Origin: an uncultured Candidatus Saccharimonas sp.
GTDB taxonomy: Bacteria > Patescibacteriota > Saccharimonadia > Saccharimonadales > AWTP1-31
Length of the DNA: 24,000 nucleotides
Assembly: GCA_943353855.1 (NCBI GenBank)
Contig: CALRBD010000006.1
Span: 1 to 24,000, forward strand
Direction: 5' to 3'
This document shows, one piece after another, positions 4,869-21,028 of this stretch. Position numbers and translations under genes: made by a program. Every line of letters begins with the position of its first letter. Within the stretch, counting starts at the first letter, position 1. The notes below the pieces were generated by a model, which was not told the origin of the DNA, ran no database searches, and saw only the letters and a program-made list of their open reading frames with translations.

Positions 4869-5446
4869 TCTACCAAGTTTTCATTGTTAATTGGAGGAGG
4901 ATTAGTCACTATACCTGAATCAAACACGAGTTTCGTTCCTTGGTTTAGTTTAAGTTGAATATCTGCAACTCCAGAGTATGTGACTACGGCAGATAATTTT
5001 TCTTTCCTTTGGATGAGTGTATCGAAGGATATAGATGGATTACCGCCTGTTTCTCTATCGATTGGATTAGAGGTAACAGAGTCTACGTAGACACTAACTT
5101 CTTTTTTACCGTTATCGCCTTTACCTAAGTAAGTATTGAAGGCAATTTTTAAATTGGTAAGTTGATCCTGAGAAAGCCCGTATTGAATCAATTTACCAAA
5201 ACCTAAAAATACCGGCTCAGTCGATGCATTATCTTCAAGTATTTCAGGAGTCTTATCTGCCTTATCGTCAATAGTTTCTTTTGATGCAGGATCGTAGTAT
5301 ACATCCGTTTTGTTTTGTGTTTCTTTACCTAGGAATGACACAAATAATACAATAAGCCCAATAACTATAAAAGCCCCAATCGCTATACCTATTTTTTTAT
5401 TCCTGGAAAGATTAACATTCTCTTGAAAATTACTTAGTAATTGCAT
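4865..5446 (-). CDS. hypothetical bitopic membrane protein, last gene of the T4SS-like operon (possible VirB8/PrgL analogue)
   Basis: 193-aa ORF with a short N-terminus, one TM helix (IGIAIGAFIVIGLIVLFVSFL) and an extracytoplasmic domain of about 150 aa. Its start overlaps the upstream gene by 17 nt. Its stop overlaps the recF stop by 4 nt. Confidence 0.6.
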   Translation of the reverse strand: MQLLSNFQENVNLSRNKKIGIAIGAFIVIGLIVLFVSFLGKETQNKTDVYYDPASKETIDDKADKTPEILEDNASTEPVFLGFGKLIQYGLSQDQLTNLKIAFNTYLGKGDNGKKEVSVYVDSVTSNPIDRETGGNPSISFDTLIQRKEKLSAVVTYSGVADIQLKLNQGTKLVFDSGIVTNPPPINNENLVD

Positions 5447-9600: not shown

Positions 9601-10221
9601 AAATGGATGTCTTTGGTCCATCCATGCCTCCACATTATCGCCTATAGCATTTCCAATAAGGCCGTTTGCTCCTCTAGATGTCTGAAGACCTATGAGTGAA
9701 CCTTTCTTGTAACTTAATATATAGCCATCTGCCGCTAGCTCGTCTACCATCTTATTGGCCATGCGACCACCAGGTTTAAAGAAATTTTTCATCTTAGGAA
9801 TTTTCCCTTGCCGATATTTTCTTTGCTGGTACATTTGCACATTGCCAATCCGGCCAATGAGCATTTCCTTGAGCTGGTTGACTAGTAAGTTTGGAATTTG
9901 TAAGAAAATTAATATAAATCCAGTGATTAATGAAGAAGCGATACCAAAACCAATTGCTGCTCTTTTTTTGGAAAGCCTTGATTTAAAGGAATTACCTTTC
10001 GGCTTCCCTGGTTTGTATAACGAGCCCCCTTCGGATTTGTCTGCTTTAGTTGAAGAGGACTTCGCTCCCGATTTTTCCTTAGCTTGAATGTCTTTCGATG
10101 ACATGGCATCACTAGAAGATCCTTCATCCCCAGTTTCGCTTGTTTTGTCTAGGGACGTTTTCCAAGCGGGCTTATCCTCGTCGTAGATTCCTGCATTTCG
10201 TTCTTCTAGATCTGTCGCCAT
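6670..10221 (-). CDS. 1183-aa membrane-anchored multidomain protein with C-terminal SGNH/GDSL hydrolase and M23 (LytM) metallopeptidase domains
   Basis: Acidic/Ser-rich N-terminus of about 85 aa, one TM helix (AAIGFGIASSLITGFILIFLQIP) and a region of about 730 aa with no recognisable family. The SGNH domain (nt 7207-7698) has blocks GDS (VGDSLT), GxN (LGTNA) and DxxH (DGIHLN). The M23 domain (nt about 6673-7090) has HxxxD (HKYKAHD) and HxH (HLHF) motifs. The gene starts 3 nt after the virB4 stop. Confidence 0.85.
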   Translation of the reverse strand: MATDLEERNAGIYDEDKPAWKTSLDKTSETGDEGSSSDAMSSKDIQAKEKSGAKSSSTKADKSEGGSLYKPGKPKGNSFKSRLSKKRAAIGFGIASSLITGFILIFLQIPNLLVNQLKEMLIGRIGNVQMYQQRKYRQGKIPKMKNFFKPGGRMANKMVDELAADGYILSYKKGSLIGLQTSRGANGLIGNAIGDNVEAWMDQRHPFRSSRWKTKRMNAFKKIYGVTSTSVIDAAKAKNSPDKDLPANNQVNKNVATEVLDPNKKGEIDAINTTNDTDGKTPEEKQSYEERAAKANDTGGALTEELDAERKAILTEGADVNTKGIAAGIASGTIDEALQESLENGAASVSFGSKFTAGAKGLLNPLDILDKVCTIKKRAQTAIQLARAARSIKLIRYAMVFINAADDTRRGNADPKLLNSLMKRVMSEDSNGNSIGGSPGFAYMMKSKFSKSRNKQTKQSVAVDGKLTGVVGGINEKLDGTPGLGAGCPVVQNPIVQVGAGAASVVAGVFSGGQSEVAILLAEGSFKIALQTVVKDIVASIISKQALKQVALGAIGNLGFEAFMGYMQAYVQKQLTLPFTGQEKGGQLGDILVAGAGASNKQRSLSAGMVPATTQQYAAAEGEYIAWRNEQFKNLSFKEKLLNPEQPNNLMFNLALATPTSVTGLVNSSKDASVSLASSVLNPGRYLSTLGNLFTGRVSAEVGDEVSYDTYTLNGSNGKKTDLATDPAGNLQVIMRPDIEAIDPEPNSDALIADNQIDAQTLLPIEGSAFARHVENCVENTDILTQIEESDESDCLAEKQQTKQFKAHLAYLDTTDAFEAEFFPEDIDTPSAADSAAIGSGNNKVYTVGDSLTVGMRDAGGLRDKYTAAGWDSTDIEATVGDRTEQAITKVTVDSAIVAQAGTVVVMLGTNASTGYAEKIKQMVDTIRGINPTANIVWMNSRTDKQDYAADNSSLLLQSLALKFKVIDWSSEYAKNKAKYPGAGDGIHLNGAGYAAKSTFLISQLGPPPAAGAGVSAGLTWPLQQSKAQVQSSLGSCLQIAQKSICDAGHKYKAHDLFAAPGTPVLAASSGTVLKADKGDCGHGFGSAFTVTVYDSVNDATYFYQHMDPGAGGVAKGAVLKPGDKIGVVGSSPAACNSPPHLHFDAMKGKGRAQCSRDACSADVKARFIDISKGLYQGYEVLP

Positions 10222-10223
10222 AA

Positions 10224-12137
10224 TTATGATCCTGGGGTTAGTCTATTAGTAAGATCAATTGTACCTTGAGGTTGATTTAATTCACCCTGCTGCTCTATCG
10301 CCTTAACCTGATCAGGGTTAGTCGTAATAAGTGCGGTTTCAGTCGGGCTGCCGCTAATCTGTATGTGCACGTGACTTTGACCTGCAAAGAAGAGACCCTG
10401 ACCGACTGGGAATTGACTAAGACGCTTCTTTTCCTCACTTGTTAATTTAAATACTTCAGCTAGCTTATCTATAGCAGATGATGACTGCTTGAGAAGAAGC
10501 TGCATACTAGCGTTAGCCACGATCGCACGGCCCATTCGACTATTCATGAAATCTTCAACATCCTGGCTTATAGTTGTAATACCAAGGTTATATTTACGAG
10601 AACGTTTAGCTAGGCTGAACATGAAGTTTGCTGAATCTTCGTATTTCATGAGCTGCCAGGCCTCATCGATAATCAGGATACGTCTTTTCTTATCGCTCTT
10701 AGTCTTATTCCAGATGTAGTTCAGAACAATATACATAGCAACTGGACGTAGTTCATCTTCTAGGTCACGAATGTTAAAAACAACCATCGGATTGTTAATA
10801 TTAGTATTAGACTGTTGGCTAAATATTCCTGCGAAAGTTCCAGTAGTATATTTACGTAATCGTTGAGCAAGCTGAGGGCCAGTACCTCCCATGTGCAATA
10901 AGACATCGTAAAGATCTACGATTGTTGGCGGCAGTGCTTTATGTGTTAGTGGATCGTTTGTAATGCCGGCTTTTGAGTAAGTTTCAATAAGGGCAGCATC
11001 AAGATCAGATTCTTCTACCGGGTTAAGCGCAGGCATCGAAGCTGTTCCGCCTGAAACCATTTGTGATTGTGCTCCACCCATCATGAGGCGTAGCAAACCA
11101 TGGAGCGTTATGATGTTACTTCGAAGGGCATTGTCTGCATCTTCGTTATCAATAACTAACGGAAGGTCAAAAGGGTTAATGCGTGTTGCTGAGTTTAGGC
11201 TTAATCTTACGTATGAACCTCCAACAGCTTCACACATCCTTTGGTATTCGTTCTCTGGGTCAATAATAAAGATCTCAGTACCGAACATTAAACTTCGAAG
11301 TGCCTCAAGTTTTACTGCAAAAGATTTTCCTGCTCCAGACTTAGCAAATACAACAGAGTTTCCATTTTCAAGACTAAATCTATCAAAAATAACTAAGCCC
11401 GAGTTGTGCATGTTTATGCCATATAATATTCCATTATCTTGACTTAAATCCGCACTAGTAAATGGAAAACTTGTGCTGATAGCACCTGTGTTCATATTTC
11501 TTCTAATTAGAAGTTGATCTGTAAATTGCGGTATTACACTGTTAAAGGCTTGCTCCTGCTGAGACGTTGCTGCTTTAGAATAAACTAGCTGTTGACCTAG
11601 TACTGACTCAATTTTATGTGTTACAAACTCTAGCTCATCCAGGCTAGACCCGTAAATAGTGAAATACATACCAAACCGGAAGAAACGTTCTTCACCCACT
11701 TGAAGCTTATCTCGCATTTCTTCGGCATCTTGAATTGCAGCCTGCTTACCTGGGTCACGTGTTCTACCCTTCTCTGCATCAATCTGTAAACCAGCTTCAA
11801 GCTGAGTAACCTTTTTTCTGAGGTTTTCAAGCACAACCTGACTTTCTACGGGGTAAATATACATAGAAAGATCCATAACCTCATCCATATTAACCATACT
11901 ACTCAGCCAGCCTGTGAAAACTTGTCGAGGGTATCCATATACATATAGGGTTCGTGCGAAACGGGTTCCAATATGAAAGAAATTATTTTCATAGACTAAA
12001 GAGCTTGGTGCAATAAAATCGCGTAGTGCGGTAACACCTTTTTGGAAGGCTGCACCTACCTCTTGCTCTTCTTTGACTTTTTGAGCTTGAGCTATCGCTA
12101 CAGGATCTGCAGCTTGTTTTTTCTTTCCGAACGCCAT
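10224..12137 (-). CDS. virB4: VirB4/TraE/PrgJ-family type IV secretion ATPase
   Basis: 637-aa ORF with a VirB4-type N-terminal domain (ARTLYVYGYPRQVFTGWLSSM), Walker A (AKSGAGKSFAVK) and Walker B (RILIIDEAWQL). The start ATG overlaps the stop of the upstream gene (TAATG). Confidence 0.9.
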   Translation of the reverse strand: MAFGKKKQAADPVAIAQAQKVKEEQEVGAAFQKGVTALRDFIAPSSLVYENNFFHIGTRFARTLYVYGYPRQVFTGWLSSMVNMDEVMDLSMYIYPVESQVVLENLRKKVTQLEAGLQIDAEKGRTRDPGKQAAIQDAEEMRDKLQVGEERFFRFGMYFTIYGSSLDELEFVTHKIESVLGQQLVYSKAATSQQEQAFNSVIPQFTDQLLIRRNMNTGAISTSFPFTSADLSQDNGILYGINMHNSGLVIFDRFSLENGNSVVFAKSGAGKSFAVKLEALRSLMFGTEIFIIDPENEYQRMCEAVGGSYVRLSLNSATRINPFDLPLVIDNEDADNALRSNIITLHGLLRLMMGGAQSQMVSGGTASMPALNPVEESDLDAALIETYSKAGITNDPLTHKALPPTIVDLYDVLLHMGGTGPQLAQRLRKYTTGTFAGIFSQQSNTNINNPMVVFNIRDLEDELRPVAMYIVLNYIWNKTKSDKKRRILIIDEAWQLMKYEDSANFMFSLAKRSRKYNLGITTISQDVEDFMNSRMGRAIVANASMQLLLKQSSSAIDKLAEVFKLTSEEKKRLSQFPVGQGLFFAGQSHVHIQISGSPTETALITTNPDQVKAIEQQGELNQPQGTIDLTNRLTPGS

Positions 12138-13090
12138 TAGTGCATCTCCCTATCTAGACCTGGTTGTGGTGCTTCACCAACACCTTTAGATACTACAGGT
12201 ACTGAAAGATCTTCAAAATTCTTAAGTGGTTGGCGGGTCGCAGTGTCGGGGTTGTAGCTGTCATAGTAAAGTTCAATTAACTCTTGGGTATCAAGTGGTA
12301 GGCCTTGAATACCGCACTGCATAAGTCCTCCTAATACCGCCTGCACTCTGTTACGTAGCTCATCCTTTGCCTTCACTAGATCAGCTTCATTAATCAGCAC
12401 CTGGTTTTGTGGTTTCTTACTGAAAAGTGCTGAGACACCCTTAACGAGACCCTTACTTGAAGACAATGCTTTTTGTACATCAACCACAGGATAGTAAGGA
12501 ATAACTACATAGAACTTCTTGTCCATGATATTAACTTGCTGGCTTATAGTGTCCATGTAATTAATGTAGTCATCCATAAGTACCGCTAAGAGCATATTGT
12601 CATGCTCTGAGCGTATTTTATCGAGCTTTTGAATGTAGGGTCCGAGATCAACCTTTTGAGACCGAATCGTAATTTGAATAGGAAAATATAAAGAGTTTAA
12701 AAAGCCCTGATAGCTAAATTCAACTGATTCCCTTTCCTCAGGACTCATAAGATCAAAATTAATAGATTTAACCATGATAATCGAACGGAAGCTGCCGTCA
12801 TTCATAATTACAATACCGTCACGTATCTCTGCCATCTGCAAAGCGTTTTGTGTGCTATTAGGATTTGATTTGGGCGCAGCAACTGGAGTTTGTATTACGC
12901 CTGGCTGCTGTGAACCTGATCTAGTCTGGGGTGCATACATATTTCCAGGAATATTTGTTACTGGCACTGAACCGGGCATAGCAATAGACTGAGAAGCAAC
13001 GCCACTCGTCGGAGGAGGCCCATAAGGATTAGATGGGACGCCAGTTGTATTTGCTTGACCCATTTGAGGTTGATTATAAGAAGGATTCAT
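12137..13090 (-). CDS. hypothetical T4SS-associated protein: Pro/Gln/Asn-rich N-terminus plus a globular domain resembling a VirB4 N-terminal domain
   Basis: 317-aa ORF translationally coupled to virB4. The first 85 aa or so are low complexity (NPSYNQPQMGQ...PGVIQTPVAAPK). The rest (IRDGIVIMNDGSFRSIIMVKSINFDLMSPEERESVEFSYQGFLNSLYFPIQITIRS...KKFYVVIPYY) follows the same strand/helix pattern as the first 180 aa or so of the adjacent VirB4. It has no Walker motifs. Confidence 0.6.
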   Translation of the reverse strand: MNPSYNQPQMGQANTTGVPSNPYGPPPTSGVASQSIAMPGSVPVTNIPGNMYAPQTRSGSQQPGVIQTPVAAPKSNPNSTQNALQMAEIRDGIVIMNDGSFRSIIMVKSINFDLMSPEERESVEFSYQGFLNSLYFPIQITIRSQKVDLGPYIQKLDKIRSEHDNMLLAVLMDDYINYMDTISQQVNIMDKKFYVVIPYYPVVDVQKALSSSKGLVKGVSALFSKKPQNQVLINEADLVKAKDELRNRVQAVLGGLMQCGIQGLPLDTQELIELYYDSYNPDTATRQPLKNFEDLSVPVVSKGVGEAPQPGLDREMH

Positions 13091-13120
13091 ATATTTGTTT
13101 GCTACCCACCCGCTCTAGTA

Positions 13121-14107
13121 CTAATGAAGAGAAACAATTACTTCTTCGTCGAGTTGCCCATGAGCTTGATTGGTCTCACGCGCAAGACTTTCAACGGTTC
13201 TATCATTGTTCCTTGCAAGTTCAATTGTAACAGGGTCAGGGGCTACTGTCACTTGTGAAACTGGACTTTTTTGCGTTGGAACATCACTAATAGGTGCCAA
13301 TGATTTATGGTTTCTGAATGATTGACCAAATTGACTTTTATTCTCATGAATTTCATCAAGAAAAGCTTTTTCATTTGGATCGAGACCGCTTTCTTTATTC
13401 TTAAAAGCAGCTGGAAGATCCCCGTCATTACTAGGATTATTCTGCATAAACCAATTTGGTCGGGCATCATCTGGTTTATGCATCTGCTCTATTATTTCAC
13501 TCTTATGTTTTTGACTGTTTTCTTCTATTTTTGCAGCTATCTGAGCGGCTTGCGGATTATCAAATATATCCTCACTATCCGGGATATCTACAGCCGATAT
13601 TACAGAAGGAAGCATTGTAGGGTTCATCAATCTATCGCTAGCAGCCCCTCCAGCTGCAGCATAGGCAGGATTACTAACGATATTTTTAGTAGCCCAGCCT
13701 CGAGTATCTACAGTCTCTGCTAATGCTCTAAGCCTTTGTCTTACCTCATCTTGCGATAGGTTATCGCTAGTATATTGCGCCACTACTTTAGGAACATTAA
13801 TCTTTACTAGTTCTTGAATTCCAGTCTGATCCCATATTCTTTTACGTGGCTTAAAGTAAAATCGCAGTTTAGCTAGAAGCCACGTCTCTGTTGGCTGGTC
13901 TCTTCCCCACGGGAAGGCTAGAAAACCTGTAACAAGAATAAGTGGAAATAGTGGGATCGCCAAAAGCGGTAAGCCCTTTGTTATAAAAAGAAAACTCAAA
14001 TATGAACTCACTAATGCGATTGAACCAAAGATAAATTGTTTTAAGGTTAAGGGCCCTAAAAACTTATCTTCTGCTTCTATATCTTGTAATACTTTGTATG
14101 TTGCCAT
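13121..14107 (-). CDS. PrgI-family (VirB3-like) membrane protein with a long C-terminal extension
   Basis: The N-terminus MATYKVLQDIEAEDKFLGPLTLKQFIFGSIALVSSYLSF matches the PrgI-family signature (D-I-x-x-x-E-D-K-x-x-G-P-x-T-x-[KR]-Q-F-I). Two TM helices follow. The remaining 230 aa or so are polar and low complexity. Position upstream of virB4 fits a VirB3 role. Confidence 0.7.
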   Translation of the reverse strand: MATYKVLQDIEAEDKFLGPLTLKQFIFGSIALVSSYLSFLFITKGLPLLAIPLFPLILVTGFLAFPWGRDQPTETWLLAKLRFYFKPRKRIWDQTGIQELVKINVPKVVAQYTSDNLSQDEVRQRLRALAETVDTRGWATKNIVSNPAYAAAGGAASDRLMNPTMLPSVISAVDIPDSEDIFDNPQAAQIAAKIEENSQKHKSEIIEQMHKPDDARPNWFMQNNPSNDGDLPAAFKNKESGLDPNEKAFLDEIHENKSQFGQSFRNHKSLAPISDVPTQKSPVSQVTVAPDPVTIELARNNDRTVESLARETNQAHGQLDEEVIVSLH

Positions 14108-14167
14108 TTACTTATATATTAGCAAAGTTTTAGTGCTCTAAGTAGAGTATTACAAAAAAACCATAAG

Positions 14168-15007
14168 CTATTTTGACGATATCTCACTTTTTAAGTCTTC
14201 ATGCGCTTCCCTCTTTCGAGTAACTGCATTTCTATTTCTAGCTTGCTGACGCCCTTTTCTCATAACTTGTTTTTCAGCACGTCTAGTTTTACGGTGTGCT
14301 CTTCGCATAATTAAGCGAGAATAGTCTCCAACTCCTTCTTGCTTTTTCCGCTCTTTTGAGACGCTTCTAGTAGTATGGCGATCAACTTTAGTTATAATGG
14401 TACGATCAGCCTCCCTAATCCTGCGCCTTGCAGTTGAAGCGTCTACAGTTCCCGTAAGAAAATCACGACCTGCACTAAGCTTTCCAGTTATCTTGTTTAA
14501 CCTGGTTCTCCGAATGTTGGTAATCGGTCCTCTTGCGGATCTTTGTTTTTTTGCATATACTTTTGCATCTCTATATTTTTCGATTTTTCGATTCATTCGC
14601 CAATCTTTTAATTGCGTATAAAGATTACTAGATTCACGATCCGGTGCTTGTCTACCGCTACGACTATATATGTCTGATGTAAGCAGTGCTTCCATTCCTA
14701 TAGACCTGACAGTCTTCTGAGTCGAAATTGCCTCCTGATGACTGTCGGCGGCACTGTCTAGTGCTCTCTCGCCTCTTGCTTCCCTGACCAATGTAAGCCT
14801 TACGCCGGCAGCAGACAAAGCAAGCCTGCCTACATCAAAGGCCTGTTCCGCCCTCTCGCCAACGCGTTCCGCTCTCTCGCCTAATTCTTCCCCGATCAAT
14901 GTAAGCCTTGCACCGGCAGCAGACAAAGCAAGCCTGCCTACATCAAAGGCTTGTTTCGCTATTTCGCCAACGCGTTCCTTTATTGGCTTAGGTGACTCAC
15001 TACTCAT
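14168..15007 (-). CDS. hypothetical highly basic soluble protein with a tandem 36-aa N-terminal repeat
   Basis: 279-aa ORF with no TM segment. It has two copies of AFDVGRLALSAAG[AV]RLTL embedded in ERVGE...GERA units. The C-terminal half is very Arg/Lys-rich (RRTRLNK, RRRIREADR, RRAHRKTRRAEKQVMRKGRQQARNRNAVTRKR). It lies between the VirB6-like and PrgI-like genes. Confidence 0.7.
   Translation of the reverse strand: MSSESPKPIKERVGEIAKQAFDVGRLALSAAGARLTLIGEELGERAERVGERAEQAFDVGRLALSAAGVRLTLVREARGERALDSAADSHQEAISTQKTVRSIGMEALLTSDIYSRSGRQAPDRESSNLYTQLKDWRMNRKIEKYRDAKVYAKKQRSARGPITNIRRTRLNKITGKLSAGRDFLTGTVDASTARRRIREADRTIITKVDRHTTRSVSKERKKQEGVGDYSRLIMRRAHRKTRRAEKQVMRKGRQQARNRNAVTRKREAHEDLKSEISSK
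14766..14981. repeat. two tandem copies of a 108-bp unit inside the basic-protein CDS
   Basis: Copy A spans 14766-14873 and copy B spans 14874-14981. Both share the identical core CCGGCAGCAGACAAAGCAAGCCTGCCTACATCAAAGGC and the ends CTCTCGCC / AACGCGTTCC. The period of 108 bp equals 36 codons, so the repeat is in frame. Confidence 0.85.
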
Positions 15008-15056
15008 AATATTTCCATACTAACATCATTAATAATTAGTACAAATAATCCTTTTT

Positions 15057-18000
15057 CTAAGACTTGATTTCCGAGCTTATTACTACTGAACTTCGCTTCT
15101 TAAATTCAGCATAAGTAATAAAATCTATGTCAATACGAGAGTAGTAGACCTTATAATATCCCCATTTATCTACAGTTACTGCTTCTGGATATTGTTTGGC
15201 TATTTCTTGAGCAATAACACCAACATACTCAACTTCACTCCATAGGTACTTATATCTATATACTTTAATGCCAGAATCGTTGGTGTAAAAGTATTTAATC
15301 TCTTTTTTGAGCCGACGATCACTCGTAGTTGGCTGGCTAGAAGTTCTAGATCGCATGGTAGGATCAATAAGCTCTGCAACACGACCGTTGGATAGAATAC
15401 TCATTCTTCCTGCACGACTTGGATCTGTAGTATATCCAAAATGGTTTGCGAGCATTTCTGTTACAGCTGGCTGTCCCAAATCGGGATCTATGCCAAGGTC
15501 TTGCAACATACCAATCGCTTCGTCCCTACTCTCACCAAGAGAACCTTGGTATAAGCCCGTTATGAGCTCATGTCCAAATGTAAAGCTGTCTGCTCGGTCT
15601 TCATCCAGCATAGTAGGATCCATCGTGGCAACTCGTGCTGCGTCTGTTCGAACTATATCCCGTGTTGCTGCAGCCGATTCAGCGTTCGTGACCATTGCCG
15701 CTGCACCAACTCTTTTACTTGTATCCTTGTAGGCATTTCGTCTCGCTCTGTAAGTATCTGGATTTGCAGCGGCATCTCCTAAGCCTCCACCTATATCCAT
15801 TCTCTGTGCACCACGAAGGCTGAAGGCTGCCGCACCACGAAGATCTTCTTGTTCAAGTGCCGAACCGCCCATTCGCGCGATACCACGTTCAAATGATCCG
15901 ACATCACCGTTAGCAATACCCATGCCCTTATTCGCACCCATATTTGCTATTGCAGCTGCCGAGTTAGTCTTGGAGAAGCCTTGTACTGCCGCCGCCTGAT
16001 AGGCTCTATTGAATCTAGCAGTTTGGGTCGCTTCGAATTCATCCCGTGCTTGTGCGGTCGCACCCGGATTTTGTCTGTCGAAAGTTTCCATCTGGCCTCT
16101 TACAAGATCGTTTACGGCTTCTCTTCCGCCCGCAGTAGTTCCTCCAGAAAGGGCGCTCACAGTTGCAGCCTCGCCATCTCTAGTAAGAAAATTTTGGAAA
16201 GCCGGGTCTTTCGCAGCATCTCCTGAAATGTTACTTAAATTACGCTTCCTAGCTTCATTACCTTTAGTTCCTATACCAAAGCGACCGCGAGTACCTGTCG
16301 CTAATCCAGATACGCCACGGTTAAGGCCTGCCGAAATACTCTGCCCATACCTGCCGCTACGAATTAAATCTCCGGTCTTTGCATCTCTACCCATCTGAGC
16401 ATATCCTTGTTGTCGGCGCTTACGAAGCTTGTCAAGGCCTGGACGTCCAGTATCCTGAATCTTCGATGCTACTGCACCAAAAACACCGCCAGCAGCTTTA
16501 AATGTAAATGGAATAAGTGCATAAGGGATAACATAAGCAGTCAGTTTAATGATTGTTCCGTAAAGGCCAGTAAAAGCGCCGGCAGCTGAAAAAGCGAATA
16601 TACGTCCTGCTCCTATTAATGCCATTACCATTGGATACATTAGAAGAAGTTTAGTAAAATTGCTCCACCAAAACTGCCACGCTTTAGCACTACCAGGAAA
16701 AATCCATGCAAGAATAGCTAGCGGAGCGAAAAGGATTAGTACAATTATGAACATTTGTCTTGCTATTAAAGTCACAAATGCCATCAGCAAAACAAGTAAT
16801 GCGCCCCCTAGCCATGTCCCGACAATCCCTAGGGCTCCTGAAGTGGCGAATATGCTGACTGCACCTACAAAAAGTACACCACCTTGAAGTGCCCCGTCAG
16901 CCCCGTCCACTTTAAATAACGTGCTTATATTTTCGTTGCCTATGTTTCCAAAAGGAGCTTGCATTATACCTAAAAGACCTTGACCTATAGAAGTTGTGAC
17001 ATCAATAAGTAAAATACATAGCCACCATGACAGGAGTATGAATATAATTGAAGCAATCAATTTAGGGAATGCTTTTTTAACTGTGTAGGCGTCCAGGAAG
17101 CTGAGACCCAGGGCTGTGCTGATAACTATTATCATCATAGCTGCTACAAGTAACGATAGAGCGATATTTCGAAAGCCTGTCCATGCAGACTTAAGGCCAG
17201 CATTTTCTTTATATTGATTGGGTTGTAGCACCATAAGATTTTGCACTTGATCGTCAATCCAAGTAGTAGTAGAGCCAATAATATTGATAATTGGGCAACC
17301 AAACCAACCTGTTACCCCTGATTGTCCTTCGCAAGAATCGTCTGCTCCACCAGTTGTTGACCCTGAGTCGCTATTAGCTATGCCAGGAGGAATTTGATCC
17401 TTGTTGCCAGTAACCTTAGCGTAGGCTGCATAGTTGTTACTCATCCTATTACCTATATTTACACAACTTTGCTCTCCGTCTTCCACGCCATGTGTTCCGT
17501 AACCAACTGAAGCTGTTCCATTGTCATCGTTTACTGTATAAGTTTTGTCACCTATTGTTACAGTATCACTGTTTGATCCATAGACATTTGTCACAATCTT
17601 TGCACCACAGCCCTTAACGAACGCCGCCGAATAATTAAGATAAGTCATAGCCTTTTTCTCATCGTCACTTACGCCTTCATTCTGTTTCTTAATAGAAGCA
17701 TTTATCTGGTCTTTAACCTTGGCTTTAGCTGGACCTCCGGTCTTGCCGGTCAAAAAACCATCCGATTCTTTGTATGTGTAGTTTGGTACATTATTCCTAT
17801 TTATAAAATAAAGTGAATTATCATTTTTTTTAAGATTACCGGTCGAAGGGCCAGCATAAGGATTATCTCCACTATACCAACCAGTGTAACGCTTGCTGTC
17901 ACTTCCGTTTACGAGGAGAAGCTTAAACCAGGCATCTTGTCTTGAACTTTTTCCGTCCTCACAGTCCCAATCTCCATACTGTTGCTCAACTATATGGCCA

Positions 18001-18263
18001 ACTTTAACAGTGGCGCCCCCAGTACTCAGAAAGCCTTCATTAAAGGGCCCACTCCCTGCCTTGATTCCGTCAGAATTCAGCTTGTCTTGCACGCATCTAG
18101 CCATTGCTTCAAGCTTTAAAATCGTAGAGACTTTAGTAGTTAGCTGGCTTTCGTTTAATGCCGCACTGGCTTTTTGGGGTGATAATAAAGAGACTCCAAC
18201 AAAACTAAGTATAAAAACAAATGTTAGAGTTATCGATGAAATTTTGTTCATATATTTATTCAT
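15057..18263 (-). CDS. VirB6/TrbL-like polytopic T4SS channel protein with a large N-terminal ectodomain, a Gly/Ala/Arg-rich C-terminal region and a terminal S74 intramolecular-chaperone domain
   Basis: Signal/anchor sequence MNKYMNKISSITLTFVFILSFVGVSLLSPQKASA, then a Cys-containing ectodomain of about 340 aa. A block of hydrophobic helices at nt about 16415-17180 (e.g. LVLLMAFVTLIARQMFIIVLILFAPLAILAWIFPG) is typical of TrbL/VirB6. A tail of about 360 aa follows. The last 88 aa (nt 15060-15323) read SDRRLKKEIKYF...YVGVIAQEIAKQYPEAVTV...YYKVYYSRI, a good match to the endosialidase/tail-fibre chaperone (Peptidase_S74) domain. I moved the start to the ATG at 18263 because the track's GTG at 18332 overlaps a good promoter. 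Confidence 0.8.
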   Translation of the reverse strand: MNKYMNKISSITLTFVFILSFVGVSLLSPQKASAALNESQLTTKVSTILKLEAMARCVQDKLNSDGIKAGSGPFNEGFLSTGGATVKVGHIVEQQYGDWDCEDGKSSRQDAWFKLLLVNGSDSKRYTGWYSGDNPYAGPSTGNLKKNDNSLYFINRNNVPNYTYKESDGFLTGKTGGPAKAKVKDQINASIKKQNEGVSDDEKKAMTYLNYSAAFVKGCGAKIVTNVYGSNSDTVTIGDKTYTVNDDNGTASVGYGTHGVEDGEQSCVNIGNRMSNNYAAYAKVTGNKDQIPPGIANSDSGSTTGGADDSCEGQSGVTGWFGCPIINIIGSTTTWIDDQVQNLMVLQPNQYKENAGLKSAWTGFRNIALSLLVAAMMIIVISTALGLSFLDAYTVKKAFPKLIASIIFILLSWWLCILLIDVTTSIGQGLLGIMQAPFGNIGNENISTLFKVDGADGALQGGVLFVGAVSIFATSGALGIVGTWLGGALLVLLMAFVTLIARQMFIIVLILFAPLAILAWIFPGSAKAWQFWWSNFTKLLLMYPMVMALIGAGRIFAFSAAGAFTGLYGTIIKLTAYVIPYALIPFTFKAAGGVFGAVASKIQDTGRPGLDKLRKRRQQGYAQMGRDAKTGDLIRSGRYGQSISAGLNRGVSGLATGTRGRFGIGTKGNEARKRNLSNISGDAAKDPAFQNFLTRDGEAATVSALSGGTTAGGREAVNDLVRGQMETFDRQNPGATAQARDEFEATQTARFNRAYQAAAVQGFSKTNSAAAIANMGANKGMGIANGDVGSFERGIARMGGSALEQEDLRGAAAFSLRGAQRMDIGGGLGDAAANPDTYRARRNAYKDTSKRVGAAAMVTNAESAAATRDIVRTDAARVATMDPTMLDEDRADSFTFGHELITGLYQGSLGESRDEAIGMLQDLGIDPDLGQPAVTEMLANHFGYTTDPSRAGRMSILSNGRVAELIDPTMRSRTSSQPTTSDRRLKKEIKYFYTNDSGIKVYRYKYLWSEVEYVGVIAQEIAKQYPEAVTVDKWGYYKVYYSRIDIDFITYAEFKKRSSVVISSEIKS

Positions 18264-18303
18264 ATTTTTTTGAGTTAAGCGCCCAGACTTATTTGATAAA
18301 GTA

Positions 18304-18332
18304 ATTATAGTGCTTATGCATGATGCCCACAA
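18304..18332 (-). promoter_or_regulatory. candidate sigma70-type promoter of the minus-strand T4SS operon
   Basis: On the minus strand: TTGTGG (18332-18327), a 17-nt spacer, then TATAAT (18309-18304). This lies about 40 nt upstream of the ATG at 18263. Confidence 0.4.
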
Positions 18333-18384
18333 CTATTATATTAAGATAAATAAAATATATTAACAATGTATCACTAGTAAGTAA

Positions 18385-18414
18385 TTGTAATTATCATGGC
18401 CGTCTGCTTATAAT
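18385..18414 (+). promoter_or_regulatory. candidate sigma70-type promoter of the pilin operon
   Basis: TTGTAA (18385-18390), an 18-nt spacer, then TATAAT (18409-18414). This lies about 40 nt upstream of the ATG at 18455. Confidence 0.4.
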
Positions 18415-18454
18415 GAAAAGAAGCATAAATATAAAGTAGTACCAAACAATATAG

Positions 18455-18898
18455 ATGACCCTATCAAATACTAGAACAACGATATTCACGACACTGGCTA
18501 TAGTTATAGCTAGTATATTTTTAATTTTTGCGTTTTGGGCACCTACAAAAGTACAAGCTGGCGGTAATCCTGCTGATAATCCCGACACTGCACAGCCTAC
18601 TGATGTGCCTCCTAAAAGAACAGACCCGACTGCTGAATGCCAAAAAGGAATAGAAGATTATGAAACCTGCGGCGTTACAAGAAATATAGTCCTGTTGATC
18701 AATGTTTTATCTGCGACACTTGGAGTTGTGGTTACCGCAGTCATTATTATTGCAGGAATACAATACTCAGCTTCAGCGGGTAATCCACAGGCCGCTGCTG
18801 CTGCTCGTCAAAGAATTGTTAATGCTGCCCTTGCACTATTATTTTTTGCAGGAATGTATGGTTTTCTACAGTGGATTGTGCCTGGAGGATTACTATGA
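18455..18898 (+). CDS. VirB2/TrbC-like T4SS pilin paralog 1
   Basis: 147 aa. Signal/anchor sequence ending VQA, a variable region with a Cys pair (AECQKGIEDYETCG), then a two-helix hairpin with the loop motif GIQYSASAGNP shared in variant form by the five downstream genes. Confidence 0.75.
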   Translation: MTLSNTRTTIFTTLAIVIASIFLIFAFWAPTKVQAGGNPADNPDTAQPTDVPPKRTDPTAECQKGIEDYETCGVTRNIVLLINVLSATLGVVVTAVIIIAGIQYSASAGNPQAAAAARQRIVNAALALLFFAGMYGFLQWIVPGGLL

Positions 18899-19356
18899 AG
18901 CGGTTAGGCTTTTTTTCAATAACCTTGTTAACTATGTGCCTTGTTTTTACAGTTACACCTAAGGTCCAAGCTGCCGTAGCTCCTGGTTGCGATAAGAGCT
19001 CCGCATTCCTCGGGATGCCTGTTTGGTATAAATACCTTGATGTTGGACCAGAAACATTACAAGATAATAAAGTCGACCCATGCGCAATAACAGGGCCAAA
19101 GAATGCTGAAGGTGGATTAGACATCCAGAAGGCGATTCCCCGAGTTGGTCTTGCGGTAGTTGAAATATTATTAAGAATTGCTGGAATGGTAGCCGTAGCT
19201 TTTGTAATATACGGAGGTTTTAAGTTCGTTACTAGCCAAGGTGAACCTGAAGCCTACAAGACAGCTCAACGAACAATAATTAACGCATTGATAGGTGTCG
19301 CAATTTCGGTCCTAGCGGTAACCATTGTTAGTGTTATTGGAGGGGCGATATTATGA
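18895..19356 (+). CDS. VirB2/TrbC-like T4SS pilin paralog 2
   Basis: Start moved to the ATG at 18895 (GGAGGA at 18884-18889, ATGA overlap with paralog 1). Signal peptide MKRLGFFSITLLTMCLVFTVTPKVQA, a Cys pair (APGCDKS...VDPCAI) and a hairpin with GGFKFVTSQGEP. Confidence 0.8.
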   Translation: MKRLGFFSITLLTMCLVFTVTPKVQAAVAPGCDKSSAFLGMPVWYKYLDVGPETLQDNKVDPCAITGPKNAEGGLDIQKAIPRVGLAVVEILLRIAGMVAVAFVIYGGFKFVTSQGEPEAYKTAQRTIINALIGVAISVLAVTIVSVIGGAIL

Positions 19357-19655
19357 TCCATCGTTTAACCCATTTCAAGCAAATAGCACAGACTGTAATT
19401 GACTCTAAAAAATTAAATATTCCACAAAAAGGATTAACTAATGATACAGTAGACAACATTTCGAAAATTGTCTTTGGTACGCTAGGTGCTGTAGCGCTTA
19501 TTATCATTATTATCGCTGGCATTAAATTTATGACATCACAAGGTAATCCAGAAGCCCTTGCCAAGGCGCGCAATACTATAATCTATGCGGCAGTCGGACT
19601 GGCAGTAGCAGTTGGAGCCTTCAGTATCGTTACGTTTGTAATAGGTAGACTGTAG
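19353..19655 (+). CDS. VirB2/TrbC-like T4SS pilin paralog 3 (short form, no signal peptide, no Cys)
   Basis: 100 aa with an ATGA overlap with paralog 2. Hydrophilic N-terminus (MIHRLTHFKQIAQTVIDSKKLNIPQKG), then the conserved hairpin with AGIKFMTSQGNP. Confidence 0.75.
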   Translation: MIHRLTHFKQIAQTVIDSKKLNIPQKGLTNDTVDNISKIVFGTLGAVALIIIIIAGIKFMTSQGNPEALAKARNTIIYAAVGLAVAVGAFSIVTFVIGRL

Positions 19656-20078
19656 ATGAAGAAATATATATCTATTATCGCTGCATTTTTTTTACTCACG
19701 TCTCTTAGTACTGGAAACGTGTTTGCAGCCGTCGTGGATCCTCCTGCGGGGTACGCGGGCCCTTACGCAGAGGTTTGCGCCGATAACCCTAGCGCTACGG
19801 TCTGTCAAGATCAGGAGAAGCTTTCAACAGATACGAATACATCGCCAATATACGGTCCTGACGGTGTTCTTCCAAAAGTGGCAAACATTCTGGCTATTGC
19901 AGCGGGAATAATTGCGGTAGTAATGATCATGGTAAGTGGTCTTAAGATGATTACATCAACTGGAGATAGTAAGAAATTTGGCGATGCCCGAAACGGTATC
20001 ATATATGCCTCAGTCGGTCTGGTCATAGTTTTGATGGCAAGAGTAATAATAGAATTTATATTGAGGACAATAGCATGA
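19656..20078 (+). CDS. VirB2/TrbC-like T4SS pilin paralog 4
   Basis: 140 aa, starting immediately after the paralog 3 stop. Signal peptide MKKYISIIAAFFLLTSLSTGNVFA, a Cys pair (EVCADNPSATVCQD) and a hairpin with SGLKMITSTGDS. Confidence 0.8.
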   Translation: MKKYISIIAAFFLLTSLSTGNVFAAVVDPPAGYAGPYAEVCADNPSATVCQDQEKLSTDTNTSPIYGPDGVLPKVANILAIAAGIIAVVMIMVSGLKMITSTGDSKKFGDARNGIIYASVGLVIVLMARVIIEFILRTIA

Positions 20079-20470
20079 AATACACACAAAAATTATTAAG
20101 AGCAACTAGCATTTTTATAATGTGCCTTTTCATTATAACTCCCCATATTGCACTTGCAGCATCCGGCGCATCCAAAGATGCTTTATGTGGTGGAGCTGGA
20201 CTAGTTGGTGGTGGTACCGGTTGCACGGCTCCGCCAGGATCCTCATCAGTAGATTCAGTAATTAAAAAAAGCATAAACATCTTTAGCGCAGTAATAGGCA
20301 TAATTGCAGTAGTAATGGTCATGGTTGGAGGATTGAAATATATTACTTCACAGGGCGATGCAGCTGCTACTGCTACTGCTAAAAATACCATACTCTATGC
20401 CGCCGTTGGCCTTGTAGTTGTTGCTCTTGCTCAAGTTATTGTAAGATTTGTTCTAAGTAGGTTTTCCTAA
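20075..20470 (+). CDS. VirB2/TrbC-like T4SS pilin paralog 5
   Basis: 131 aa with an ATGA overlap with paralog 4. Signal peptide ending ALA, a Cys pair (DALCGGAGLVGGGTGCT) and a hairpin with GGLKYITSQGDA. The C-terminal helix is nearly identical to that of paralog 6. Confidence 0.8.
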   Translation: MKYTQKLLRATSIFIMCLFIITPHIALAASGASKDALCGGAGLVGGGTGCTAPPGSSSVDSVIKKSINIFSAVIGIIAVVMVMVGGLKYITSQGDAAATATAKNTILYAAVGLVVVALAQVIVRFVLSRFS

Positions 20471-20486
20471 TATGTAGCAAAACCAC

Positions 20487-20516
20487 TTGTAATTACTAAA
20501 ATAGTTATGGTATAAA
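20487..20516 (+). promoter_or_regulatory. candidate internal promoter for pilin paralog 6
   Basis: TTGTAA (20487-20492), an 18-nt spacer, then TATAAA (20511-20516) preceded by TGG (extended -10). The -35 hexamer and spacing match the candidate promoter at 18385-18414. Confidence 0.35.
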
Positions 20517-20544
20517 AATAAGTAAGATTAACGAAAGGTTCATA

Positions 20545-20955
20545 ATGATCAAGAAAATAAAAATAACTTTAATAGGACTAATGGCAGCGGCAGCATTAAT
20601 CGTTCCCCTAACTATCCCGGCTAGCGTATACGCTGAGGACATACAAAAGAGTCTATGCGGAGGTACAGACCTAACTCTTGCTAAAGATGGTGGCAACTGC
20701 ACAAACCCAGATGCCGAGCTTAAAGTAAACAACACTATTACTCTTGCTCTTAATGTATTCTCTGCAATTGTTGGTATTATTGCTGTCGTCATGATTATCG
20801 TTGGAGGTGTGAAATATATTACTTCACAGGGTGAATCCGCAAATATAACATCAGCTAAGAATACGATTCTTTATGCTCTAGTAGGACTTGTTGTGGTCGC
20901 ACTGGCTCAAGTTATCGTAAGATTTGTACTCACTCGATTCGTTGGCAATAACTAA
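20545..20955 (+). CDS. VirB2/TrbC-like T4SS pilin paralog 6
   Basis: 136 aa. Signal peptide MIKKIKITLIGLMAAAALIVPLTIPASVYA, a Cys pair (SLCGGTDLTLAKDGGNCT) and a hairpin with GGVKYITSQGES. It is separated from paralog 5 by a 74-bp spacer. Confidence 0.8.
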   Translation: MIKKIKITLIGLMAAAALIVPLTIPASVYAEDIQKSLCGGTDLTLAKDGGNCTNPDAELKVNNTITLALNVFSAIVGIIAVVMIIVGGVKYITSQGESANITSAKNTILYALVGLVVVALAQVIVRFVLTRFVGNN

Positions 20956-20971
20956 CGCAGCCTAATGTTTC

Positions 20972-20997: not shown

Positions 20998-21028
20998 TAA
21001 CTAAATATCTTTATTGATACAAGCATAT

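What the first reader, a model, noticed from the sequence alone, without database searches (positions are those of the whole stretch)
15057..18263. VirB6/TrbL-like channel protein fused to a phage tail-fibre intramolecular chaperone (S74) domain
Seen in sequence: the last 88 residues (nt 15060-15323) read SDRRLKKEIKYFYTNDSGIKVYRYKYLWSEVEYVGVIAQEIAKQYPEAVTVDKWGYYKVYYSRIDIDF. This contains the S-D-x-x-L-K start, the G-x-I-A-Q-E core and the P-E-x-V motif of the endosialidase/tail-fibre chaperone domain. It ends a Gly/Ala/Arg-rich tail of about 360 aa that follows the polytopic TrbL/VirB6 block. Established knowledge: S74 domains drive trimerisation of phage tail spikes and fibres, then cleave themselves off at the conserved Ser. 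Inference: the VirB6 tail may assemble into a trimeric fibre or needle-like appendage that is autoproteolytically matured. That would graft a phage-fibre assembly module onto a T4SS channel subunit. I am not aware of this fusion being characterised.
Basis: partly seen in the sequence, partly recalled or inferred. Interest (0 to 1): 0.85.

Follow-up and report, generated by a model that had tools for sequence, protein, structure and literature searches.

The report
Secretion-channel protein with self-cleaving phage-type cap
A core membrane subunit (VirB6-like) of the type IV secretion machine of a tiny parasitic bacterium (Saccharibacteria) really does end in the self-cleaving, trimer-forming "chaperone" domain best known from phage tail fibres. 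The part it caps looks like a helical domain rather than a fibre, and only about one in ten related bacteria carry the cap.

Summary
Window 15057-18263 (- strand) encodes one 1068-aa protein with these parts:
- a signal peptide;
- a Cys-rich ectodomain;
- a 7-helix VirB6/TrbL_3-like core;
- a Cys-free, Ala/Gly/Arg-rich all-alpha tail;
- a disordered linker;
- a C-terminal Peptidase_S74 domain (Pfam 33.4 bits against a cutoff of 22) with the Ser981/Lys986 dyad intact.

The gene lies in an origin-proximal chromosomal T4SS of Candidatus Saccharibacteria, together with pilin paralogues, PrgI/VirB3, TrsD, VirB4 and wall hydrolases.

The fusion is not an artefact. The identical protein is on 8 contigs. 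Eighteen of 166 family members, and 8 of 80 species-level genomes, carry the same C-terminal S74, scattered across the family tree.

- The tail is predicted as short packed helices.
- A flexible linker separates it from S74.
- The positive-inside rule places it in the cytoplasm.
- Solved VirB6 assemblies are pentamers.

My best reading is an accessory, transient trimerising and self-cleaving cap on the VirB6 tail. This is inferred, not shown.

No paper I could find describes the fusion. I class it as a new variant of the extended-VirB6 kind, with interest about 0.55.

A notable side finding is that the virB6/pilin region is a hypervariable cassette within an otherwise conserved T4SS.

The parts
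15057..18263 (-). Complete gene for the 1068-aa VirB6-like/S74 protein (stop codon 15057-15059). The ORF is open upstream to a TTG at 18332, but ATG 18263 matches the database protein.
18162..18263 (-). Signal peptide, aa 1-34 (MNKYMNKISSITLTFVFILSFVGVSLLSPQKASA|A), with a hydrophobic core and an A-x-A site.
   Evidence: Read from the sequence; hydropathy; helix 2-27 in the model. The cleavage site is inferred.
17202..18161 (-). Extracytoplasmic N-terminal domain, aa 35-354: mixed alpha/beta, 6 Cys, with invariant C311 and C323 near the membrane. aa 35-300 are hypervariable: 23-37% identity to relatives whose membrane core is 93-97% identical.
16449..17201 (-). VirB6/TrbL_3-like core, aa 355-605: seven long hydrophobic helices. 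Invariant residues are Y393, P400, R502, P514, P544 and P580.
15405..16448 (-). Basic juxtamembrane helix (aa 606-640, 11 K/R against 4 D/E) followed by an all-alpha, Cys-free, Ala/Gly/Arg-rich tail (to aa 953). Conserved motifs are GM-NDRS-G-FDR (aa ~600-612) and aGR-D-GG-G-G (aa ~819-830).
15324..15404 (-). Disordered linker, aa 954-980 (pLDDT <50). It is Ser/Thr/Pro-rich here and Gly/Pro/Ala/Gln-rich in other carriers.
15060..15323 (-). Peptidase_S74 (intramolecular chaperone auto-processing) domain, aa 981-1068, including a C-terminal helix (aa ~1051-1067).
15306..15323 (-). S-D-R-R-L-K: predicted scissile and nucleophilic Ser981 (15321-15323) and general-base Lys986 (15306-15308). The predicted cut between Thr980 and Ser981 would release an 88-aa fragment.
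   Evidence: S, D and K are invariant in all 18 carriers. The SDxxxK catalytic motif is described in PMC10769870. Cleavage itself is inferred.
14168..15007 (-). 279-aa Lys/Arg-rich protein of unknown function between virB6 and prgI. It lies inside the variable island and has no family hit.
   Evidence: Its presence is not specifically tied to S74.
5430..14107 (-). The rest of the T4SS operon: PrgI/VirB3 (13121-14107), TrsD/TraC-like (12137-13090), VirB4 of the CD1110 family (10224-12137), a 1183-aa GDSL + M23 hydrolase (6670-10221), and a lysozyme + C39-like VirB1 analogue (5430-6716).
18455..20955 (+). Six divergently transcribed T4SS_pilin/VirB2-like paralogues.

Best explanation
The gene encodes the VirB6-type subunit of the chromosomal, origin-proximal type IV secretion system of a Candidatus Saccharibacteria bacterium. 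It is an 'extended VirB6' with a signal peptide, a hypervariable disulfide-type ectodomain, a seven-helix VirB6/TrbL_3 core, and a roughly 350-aa all-helical tail. In this allele a flexible linker joins the tail to a catalytically intact Peptidase_S74 domain.

Proposed mechanism (inferred). After membrane insertion the tail lies on the cytoplasmic face. S74 domains of three neighbouring subunits associate into the canonical S74 trimer and bring three tails together. Once the trimer is correctly formed, Ser981 (activated by Lys986) cuts the Thr980-Ser981 bond and the 88-aa cap is released. S74 would thus act as a transient oligomerisation and quality-control cap on the tail during assembly of the T4SS inner-membrane complex, not as the seed of a fibre.

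The module is accessory and swappable. It has been gained or lost many times within the family, and close relatives run the same machine without it.
For: Shown by tools.
- S74 domain: the match is above Pfam's curated cutoff. The S-D-x-R-[LMV]-K motif is invariant in 18 carriers. The predicted fold matches viral ICA domains.
- VirB6 identity: TrbL_3 precomputed hits; seven hydrophobic helices; the best PDB fold hits are R388 TrwI/VirB6 chains at probability 0.85-0.97, with DotA also listed; the synteny pilins | VirB6 | PrgI | TrsD | VirB4 | hydrolases is conserved in L001-L005.
- Tail structure: all-alpha with a disordered linker before S74. It has no structural relative in the PDB.
- Topology indicators: loop 386-401 carries +3/-1 and loop 523-538 carries +2/0. 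The post-helix-7 segment carries 11 K/R against 4 D/E, and the family median net charge there is +7 over 165 proteins. Net charge is about -13 for the ectodomain and about +2 for the tail. Cys per 100 aa is 2.14 in the ectodomain and 0.01 in the tail.
- Accessory nature: 18 of 166 family members and 8 of 80 GTDB species loci carry S74. Carriers sit at 14 separate positions in a tree built on the core domain. L002 has VirB4 at 98%, TrsD at 96.5% and PrgI at 95% identity but a VirB6 with no S74. L064 has an in-frame TGA inside the S-D-x-R-L-K motif.

From established knowledge.
- S74 domains trimerise and self-cleave at the Ser of SDxxxK, and Ser-to-Ala mutation blocks this (PMC10769870; PMC8326128).
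- They fold in the cytoplasm in phages, and in MYRF they act on the cytoplasmic side (the MYRF topology is from my own knowledge).
- The Agrobacterium VirB6 C-terminus was mapped to the cytoplasm (Jakubowski et al. 2004, from my own knowledge).
Against: Known S74 domains sit directly against a triple beta-helix that they help fold. Here they follow a floppy linker, so 'chaperone of the tail' is not structurally obvious.

VirB6 is pentameric in R388 and Dot/Icm (PMC9259494, PMC12857230), which mismatches a trimer.

In the R388 structure only helices alpha1-alpha2 of VirB6 are in the membrane and the other helices sit in the periplasm. A classical 7-TM reading, and hence a cytoplasmic tail, may therefore be wrong for the assembled state.

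The near-total absence of Cys from the tails (0.01%) is below the 0.16-0.88% seen in cytoplasmic proteins of this window. The tail also diverges fast. Both would fit an exported or translocated segment as well.
Confidence: 0.45

Rival explanations
1. The tail is extracytoplasmic. S74 nucleates a trimeric fibre or needle built from the VirB6 tail, which matures by autoproteolysis and contacts or penetrates the host cell.
For: S74 is intact and C-terminal, as in fibres. In R388 most VirB6 helices are periplasmic in the assembled machine. Tails are Cys-free and diverge fast. The whole virB6/pilin region is a hypervariable island, as expected of host-facing parts. Predatory Bdellovibrio uses S74-capped fibres to handle prey. 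F-plasmid TraG has a periplasmic C-terminal domain (from my own knowledge).
Against: The tail is predicted as about 17 short packed helices with no beta-helix or long coiled coil. A disordered linker separates it from S74. The basic juxtamembrane segment and the odd number of hydrophobic helices predict C-in. About 90% of orthologues lack S74. VirB6 assemblies are pentameric.
Confidence: 0.12
2. S74 acts as a release or switch module, as in MYRF. Oligomerisation-dependent self-cleavage is a checkpoint that either frees the tail's C-terminal end to activate the T4SS, or liberates the 88-aa S74 trimer, which is itself the functional product.
For: The closest S74 relatives are about 90-180-aa stand-alone proteins that are little more than a leader plus S74. 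Some carry a TM helix, a lipobox or a Tat-type leader directly before S-D-x-R-L-K, so cleavage would free the S74 domain. MYRF uses the same domain for trimerisation-dependent release from a membrane (PMC8326128). The flexible linker suits an autonomous module.
Against: Only 28 of 106 complete small relatives have a hydrophobic N-terminus. No function is known for a free S74 domain. The dispensability of the domain across orthologues argues against an obligatory activation step.
Confidence: 0.18
3. S74 is a passenger with little or no function. It is a small, self-folding terminal module that recombination repeatedly tacks onto the low-complexity C-terminal end of VirB6 tails and that is readily lost.
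For: Its distribution is patchy, at 14 separate tree positions. It is present or absent between near-identical T4SS backbones. Non-carriers end in the same kind of G/P-rich low-complexity sequence that precedes S74 in carriers. One locus carries a nonsense codon in the motif.
Against: The catalytic S, D and K and 21 columns are invariant across carriers that share only 30-50% identity in the domain. This indicates purifying selection on an active domain.
Confidence: 0.2
4. Artefact: the S74 segment belongs to a separate gene and was joined by a frameshift, misassembly or phage contamination.
For: In two of eight GTDB loci the S74 part is not in one clean ORF with the core. L049 is interrupted by a 10-N scaffold gap, and L064 by an in-frame TGA.
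Against: The ORF in the window is uninterrupted. The identical protein is on 8 contigs from different assemblies. Six GTDB loci and 17 other proteins show the same single-ORF fusion. There are no phage genes nearby; the neighbours are T4SS genes and dnaA/dnaN/recF.
Confidence: 0.01

Closest known systems
Extended-VirB6 proteins (for example F-plasmid TraG, Rickettsiales VirB6 paralogues, the 700-900-aa VirB6 homologues of MPF-FA systems such as pCW3 TcpH), and the Patescibacteria T4SS VirB6 described in PMC12102498
   Same: These have a polytopic VirB6/TrbL-type core of at least five hydrophobic helices plus large hydrophilic extensions. The gene lies next to virB3/virB4. In Patescibacteria the system is chromosomal, origin-proximal and carries VirB2-like pilins, and the virB6 gene was essential in Ca. 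Southlakia epibionticum.
   Different: None of the papers I searched, nor any extended VirB6 I know of, mentions a Peptidase_S74 terminus (otherwise my own knowledge). This protein also has a roughly 320-aa hypervariable N-terminal ectodomain in addition to the C-terminal tail.
Phage tailspike and tail-fibre C-terminal intramolecular chaperone domains (endosialidase endoNF of phage K1F, T5 pb1/L-shaped fibre, T4-like long tail fibre tips; Pfam PF13884)
   Same: The domain is C-terminal, has an SDxxxK Ser-Lys motif and a G-x-I/M-A-Q-E core, and its predicted fold matches.
   Different: There is no triple beta-helix or fibre upstream; an alpha-helical domain and a disordered linker sit there instead. 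The host protein is a membrane channel subunit in a cellular operon. The nearest sequence relatives are small bacterial proteins, not phage fibres.
MYRF (myelin regulatory factor) ICA domain
   Same: A membrane-anchored protein uses an S74/ICA domain for trimerisation-coupled self-cleavage. It is the best PDB sequence match to the family profile, though weak (7dc3, E=0.87).
   Different: In MYRF the ICA domain lies between the released N-terminal factor and the membrane anchor, and is preceded by a beta-helical stalk (PMC8326128). Here the anchor is N-terminal, so cleavage would release only the cap.
Bdellovibrio bacteriovorus MAT (mosaic adhesive trimeric) fibres with S74 termini (PMC10769870)
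   Same: This is a cellular, non-phage use of S74 by a bacterium that lives on other bacteria. Within one protein family, S74 and non-S74 termini alternate, and tips are swapped.
   Different: MAT proteins are secreted beta-helical trimeric fibres with a conserved N-terminal anchor domain. The present protein is a T4SS membrane subunit with a helical tail.

Membership tests
Peptidase_S74 / intramolecular chaperone auto-processing (ICA) domain (PF13884) | Profile match above the curated gathering score | tested here: met
   33.4 bits against a cutoff of 22, E=5.4e-8, full profile 1-58/58. 8 of 31 and 18 of 166 family members also match.
Peptidase_S74 / intramolecular chaperone auto-processing (ICA) domain (PF13884) | Catalytic Ser-Lys dyad in an S-D-x-x-x-K motif at the start of the domain | tested here: met
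   S981-D-R-R-L-K986. S, D and K are invariant in 18 carriers. The motif is defined in PMC10769870.
Peptidase_S74 / intramolecular chaperone auto-processing (ICA) domain (PF13884) | The fold of the domain | tested here: met
   The AF2 model has pLDDT 85-96. BFVD Foldseek hits to ICA and endosialidase-chaperone domains reach probability 1.0 and rmsd 1.6 A over 71 columns. Both sides are predictions, and the model is a monomer.
Peptidase_S74 / intramolecular chaperone auto-processing (ICA) domain (PF13884) | Trimerisation and autoproteolytic release of the domain | not testable with these tools
   This needs multimer modelling or expression of wild type against S981A.
Phage tail fibre / tailspike (S74-capped trimeric fibre) | A trimeric beta-helical or otherwise fibrous shaft immediately upstream of S74 | tested here: not met
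   Upstream are about 17 short alpha helices and a 26-residue disordered linker. Linkers in other carriers are low-complexity with no consistent Gly-X-Y repeat. PHROG and BFVD similarity is confined to the S74 part.
Phage tail fibre / tailspike (S74-capped trimeric fibre) | A phage or prophage gene context | tested here: not met
   The neighbours are T4SS genes plus rnpA, dnaA, dnaN and recF.
VirB6 / TrbL family (T4SS) | Profile match to a TrbL/VirB6 family | tested here: inconclusive
   Precomputed PF19590 TrbL_3 at E<=1e-5 for this exact protein and for 29 of 31 homologues. One of 31 homologues hits PF04610 TrbL at 7.8e-5. A direct scan of the Pfam-A copy at hand gave no TrbL-type hit, and NCBIfam gave none either.
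VirB6 / TrbL family (T4SS) | A polytopic protein with five or more hydrophobic helices | tested here: met
   Seven helices between aa 355 and 605. R388 VirB6 also has seven long helices.
VirB6 / TrbL family (T4SS) | Encoded next to virB3 and virB4 within a T4SS gene cluster | tested here: met
   PrgI, TrsD-like and VirB4 (CD1110 family, E=5e-106) lie directly downstream, and VirB2-like pilins lie upstream. The same order is seen in L001-L005.
VirB6 / TrbL family (T4SS) | Structural similarity to a solved VirB6 | tested here: inconclusive
   The top four PDB hits are TrwI/VirB6 chains covering the whole target (probability 0.66-0.97), but the E-values are 0.05-0.3 and TM-scores 0.28-0.38. DotA ranks 11.
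VirB6 / TrbL family (T4SS) | Pentameric assembly at the base of the channel | not testable with these tools
   Multimer prediction and experiment were unavailable.
Extended-VirB6 subfamily | A VirB6 core plus one or more large hydrophilic domains | tested here: met
   A 320-aa N-terminal ectodomain and a 460-aa C-terminal extension. The definition is quoted in PMC12857230.

The most novel reading that the evidence does not exclude
In a subset of Saccharibacteria, the essential host-dependent T4SS has co-opted a phage-type self-cleaving trimerisation module as an assembly or activation checkpoint on its VirB6 subunit. Alternatively, and less likely, the module builds a three-fold, autoproteolytically matured appendage from VirB6 tails that engages the host cell. 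Either way an S74 protease would be a working part of a secretion-system core component, imposing three-fold symmetry on a subunit thought to be pentameric.
Probability: 0.25. Interest if true: 0.8.

Novelty: new variant of a known kind. Interest (0 to 1): 0.55.

Why it matters
Patescibacterial T4SSs are essential for the epibiotic lifestyle, but their mechanism is unknown, and the roles of the hydrophilic extensions of 'extended' VirB6 proteins are an acknowledged open question (PMC12857230).

A catalytically intact S74 domain on VirB6 gives a simple handle on that question. A Ser981Ala mutant, detection of a 10-kDa cleavage product, and trimer against pentamer stoichiometry are all directly testable. 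The answers would show where the tail sits and how it oligomerises.

The finding also widens the known cellular, non-phage uses of the S74 module beyond MYRF and the Bdellovibrio MAT fibres.

Separately, virB6 (especially its ectodomain) and several pilin genes form a hypervariable cassette inside an otherwise 95-98% conserved machine. This points to these parts as candidate host-specificity or immune-evasion determinants.

Tried and rejected
1. Direct Pfam and NCBIfam scans of the whole protein and of its three segments gave no TrbL/VirB6 hit. I relied instead on precomputed TrbL_3 hits, synteny and fold.
2. PDB sequence searches were uninformative. The single C-terminus gave nothing. The family S74 profile gave only weak MYRF and T4 fibre matches at E~1. 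The whole-family profile gave spurious influenza HA2 fusion-peptide matches to the Gly-rich juxtamembrane motif, which I treat as compositional chance.
3. A Foldseek PDB search with the tail model gave only insignificant alpha-solenoid hits. The tail has no recognisable solved relative.
5. I asked whether the extra basic-protein gene between virB6 and prgI is a partner of S74. The window's 279-aa protein and L001's 466-aa protein are unrelated in sequence. An extra gene is present in 7 of 8 S74+ loci and in 37 of 58 S74- loci, so it is not specific.
6. I asked whether the small stand-alone S74 relatives share a membrane-anchor-plus-S74 architecture. Only 28 of 106 have a hydrophobic N-terminus, so it is not general. 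Their gene contexts are ordinary cellular loci.
7. A collagen-like Gly-X-Y reading of the pre-S74 linkers fails because no consistent register exists across carriers.
8. A homologue search with the tail alone found only two fragments of the same family, so there is no evidence that the tail occurs outside VirB6-like proteins.

Full report
**1. What is there**

The minus-strand ORF at 15057..18332 is uninterrupted. Starting from the ATG at 18263 it encodes 1068 aa. That product is identical to a database protein called on 8 contigs from several metagenome assemblies.

The last 88 residues (nt 15060-15323) begin S-D-R-R-L-K. They match Pfam Peptidase_S74 over the whole profile at 33.4 bits, against a curated cutoff of 22, with E=5.4e-8. 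PHROG tail-fibre and virion families hit only this stretch.

A frameshift or misassembly is excluded.

**2. Anatomy**

| Residues | Feature |
|---|---|
| 1-34 | Sec-type signal peptide (…KASA\|A) |
| 35-354 | Mixed alpha/beta ectodomain with 6 Cys; C311 and C323 are invariant in the family |
| 355-605 | Seven long hydrophobic helices with invariant Y393, P400, R502, P514, P544, P580 |
| 606-640 | Very basic helix (11 K/R against 4 D/E) |
| ~640-953 | About 15 further short helices (9-25 residues), predicted with good confidence (many blocks at pLDDT 85-97) |
| 954-979 | Disordered linker (pLDDT <50) |
| 981-1068 | S74 domain (pLDDT 85-96) |

- The tail model has no significant relative in the PDB.
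- The S74 part superposes on viral 'intramolecular chaperone auto-processing' domains in BFVD. The best local match covers 71 columns at rmsd 1.6 A, 45% identity and probability 1.0.

**3. Is it VirB6?**

- The Pfam-A copy I could scan gave no TrbL hit.
- The precomputed annotation of this exact protein and of 29 of 31 homologues is PF19590 TrbL_3 at E<=1e-5. One homologue hits PF04610 TrbL.
- The model of aa 1-680 finds R388 TrwI/VirB6 chains as its top PDB matches: probability 0.85-0.97, whole target covered, but E-values of 0.05-0.3. Legionella DotA is further down the list.
- The gene sits between six divergently transcribed VirB2-type pilin genes and PrgI/VirB3, a TrsD-like protein, and VirB4 (CD1110 family, E=5e-106). 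Two large wall hydrolases follow.
- The same gene order recurs in L001-L005.

Taken together, the protein is the VirB6-type subunit of this T4SS, of the 'extended VirB6' kind defined in PMC12857230.

The window also carries rnpA, dnaA, dnaN and recF. Homologous loci are almost all from Candidatus Saccharibacteria/Saccharimonadales MAGs. This is therefore the chromosomal, origin-proximal Patescibacteria T4SS described in PMC12102498. That paper reports VirB6 homologues, essential in Ca. Southlakia epibionticum, but never mentions S74, a chaperone or a tail.

**4. How common is the fusion?**

- The family is very large. A profile search of 1.84 billion cluster representatives found 12,841 at E<=1e-3 and 7,328 at E<=1e-30.
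- Among the 166 long members I held, 18 end in S74.
- Among 80 GTDB species-level loci, 8 do. Six have S74 in one ORF with the core. One is broken by a 10-N scaffold gap. One has an in-frame TGA at the x of S-D-x-R-L-K.
- All 18 keep S, D and K. In all of them S74 follows 20-40 residues of Gly/Pro/Ala/Gln-rich (here Ser/Thr/Pro-rich) low-complexity sequence.
- Non-carriers typically end in the same kind of low-complexity sequence.
- On a neighbour-joining tree of the core domain, carriers sit at 14 separate positions.
- A close relative, L002, has VirB4 at 98%, TrsD-like at 96.5% and PrgI at 95% identity. Its VirB6 is only 47% identical over aa 18-779, has nothing alignable beyond that, and has no S74.

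The module is recurrent, under constraint where present, and dispensable for the machine as such.

**5. Where did the domain come from?**

A profile of the family's S74 domains finds small proteins as its best matches (E down to 1e-38). These are 90-180 aa long, come from diverse bacteria, and consist of little more than a leader and an S74 domain. Some carry extra copies of the SPEPP-SDIRLKRDI motif.

The two I looked up lie in ordinary cellular loci. 'Grafted from a phage fibre' is therefore not established. The immediate relatives are cellular.

**6. Mechanism**

Established knowledge: S74 domains trimerise, assist folding of the trimer upstream, and then cut themselves off at the Ser of SDxxxK. 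Ser-to-Ala mutation blocks this (PMC10769870; PMC8326128).

Shown here: the catalytic motif and the fold are intact.

Inferred: three S74 domains of neighbouring VirB6-like subunits associate. This brings three tails together. The Thr980|Ser981 bond is then cut and an 88-aa cap is released.

I do not think this builds a fibre, for four reasons.
- The tail is a set of short packed helices.
- It is insulated from S74 by a floppy linker.
- The charge pattern of the loops, and a family-wide net charge of about +7 after the last helix, predict an N-out, seven-helix, C-in topology. This puts the tail in the cytoplasm next to VirB4, TrsD and PrgI.
- The ectodomain and tail also differ sharply in Cys content (2.14 against 0.01 per 100 aa) and in net charge, which fits two different compartments.

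It is accessory and swappable. I put confidence at about 0.45.

**7. What weakens that reading**

- In the R388 cryo-EM structure only helices alpha1-alpha2 of VirB6 are in the membrane. The other five form a periplasmic pentameric dome (PMC9259494). Classical topology rules may therefore mislead for the assembled state.
- A trimeric module mismatches a pentamer.
- The almost complete exclusion of Cys from tails is stronger than expected for cytoplasmic proteins of this genome, which have 0.16-0.88%.
- The tail evolves fast.

I therefore keep four rivals:
- a MYRF-like switch or release model (about 0.18);
- a near-neutral passenger module (about 0.2);
- an artefact (about 0.01).

**8. Side finding: a hypervariable cassette**

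DNA identity to L002 is about 86% over window 4196-14115 and 19905-24000. It collapses across 14116-19904, which holds the 279-aa gene, virB6 and the first pilin genes.

Within the closest clade the protein is mosaic:

| Compared with | Core | Ectodomain aa 35-300 | Tail | S74 |
|---|---|---|---|---|
| P0002 | 95% | 25% | 75-83% | 93% |
| P0003 / P0005 | 93-97% | 23-37% | ~48% | ~48% |

The wall hydrolases are also less conserved than the ATPase module, at 58-76%. The outward-facing parts of this T4SS are diversifying by recombination, which is what one expects of host-interaction determinants. The tail and S74 are inherited together.

**9. Novelty**

Full-text searches found nothing describing the fusion. 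I combined S74, intramolecular chaperone, endosialidase or tail fibre with VirB6, type IV secretion, Saccharibacteria or Patescibacteria.

Automatic annotation already flags the domain. NCBI names P0002 'tail fiber domain-containing protein', and precomputed Pfam lists PF13884 with PF19590. The architecture is thus visible in databases but uninterpreted.

I classify it as a new variant of a known kind: an extended VirB6 with an S74 terminus. Interest is about 0.55. It is a real, recurrent and directly testable oddity in an essential and poorly understood machine.

Noticed in passing
window 14116-19904 (compared with L002): This stretch is a hypervariable island inside a conserved T4SS. The flanks are ~86% identical in DNA to a relative, with VirB4 at 98%, TrsD at 96.5% and PrgI at 95% aa identity. 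The 279-aa gene, virB6 and the first three pilin genes are barely alignable. VirB6 is 47% identical in aa, and the pilins about 65% in nt.
   Followed up: partly
window 17364-18161 (aa 35-300 of the VirB6-like protein): The protein is mosaic. The N-terminal ectodomain is only 23-37% identical to homologues whose membrane core is 93-97% identical (P0002, P0003, P0005). Even the signal peptide switches between about 21% and 97% identity. This suggests recombinational swapping of a host-facing domain.
   Followed up: partly
window 15060-16460 (tail); family-wide over 165 proteins: Cys is almost completely excluded from the C-terminal tails: 0.01 per 100 aa, and 97.6% of tails have none. The ectodomains have 2.14 per 100 aa, and cytoplasmic proteins of this window have 0.16-0.88%. 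I have no explanation for this. It could mean the tail is exposed to an oxidising compartment or is translocated.
   Followed up: partly
P0032, P0037, P0041, P0045, P0047, P0051; loci L006 and L007: There is a large set of 90-180-aa stand-alone S74-domain proteins in diverse bacteria. Some have a TM helix, a lipobox or a Tat-like leader right before S-D-x-R-L-K. Nineteen of 120 carry 2-4 copies of the cleavage-site motif, seen as an SPEPP..SDIRLKRDI repeat in the examples read. The two loci inspected contain no recognisable phage structural genes (L006 does hold an IS-type transposase pair). Their function is unknown to me.
   Followed up: partly
L064 6545-6556: In one GTDB Saccharibacteria genome the VirB6-like ORF is interrupted by an in-frame TGA exactly at the x of S-D-x-R-L-K (acg tca gac TGA cgc ttg aaa). 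This could be a CGA-to-TGA nonsense mutation removing S74, a sequencing error, or read-through.
   Followed up: partly
window 18455-20955 (+): Six tandem VirB2/T4SS_pilin paralogues are transcribed divergently from virB6. The first overlaps the second (18455-18898 and 18871-19356). The promoter-proximal ones lie in the variable island.
   Followed up: partly
window 14168-15007 (-): A 279-aa Lys/Arg-rich protein with no family hit. Its N-terminus contains an internal direct repeat (…QAFDVGRLALSAAGARLTL… occurs twice). Unrelated basic proteins of 338-466 aa occupy the same slot in other loci (L001, L049, L064). The slot is empty in L002.
   Followed up: partly
window 213-4868: rnpA, dnaA, dnaN and recF lie next to the T4SS operon. 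The system is thus at the chromosomal replication origin, as reported for Patescibacteria T4SSs (PMC12102498).
   Followed up: yes
window 5430-10221 (-): There are two large secreted-type wall hydrolases in the operon: GDSL lipase/esterase + M23 peptidase (1183 aa), and phage-type lysozyme + C39-like peptidase. They are much less conserved between relatives (76% and 58%) than the ATPase module. In L001 they are replaced by VanY and PlyCA_N/NlpC_P60 enzymes.
   Followed up: no
window ~16420-16480 (aa ~595-615, motif GGvFG-laGM-NDRS-G-FDR): The conserved Gly-rich end of helix 7 and the start of the juxtamembrane helix gave weak profile matches (E~0.006) to the influenza HA2 fusion peptide ([20 protein letters not shown]). 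This is probably compositional chance, but the motif is the most conserved part of the post-core region.
   Followed up: no
window ~15770-15810 (aa ~819-830): A conserved aGR-D-GG-G-G motif sits in the otherwise fast-evolving tail. Its role is unknown.
   Followed up: no
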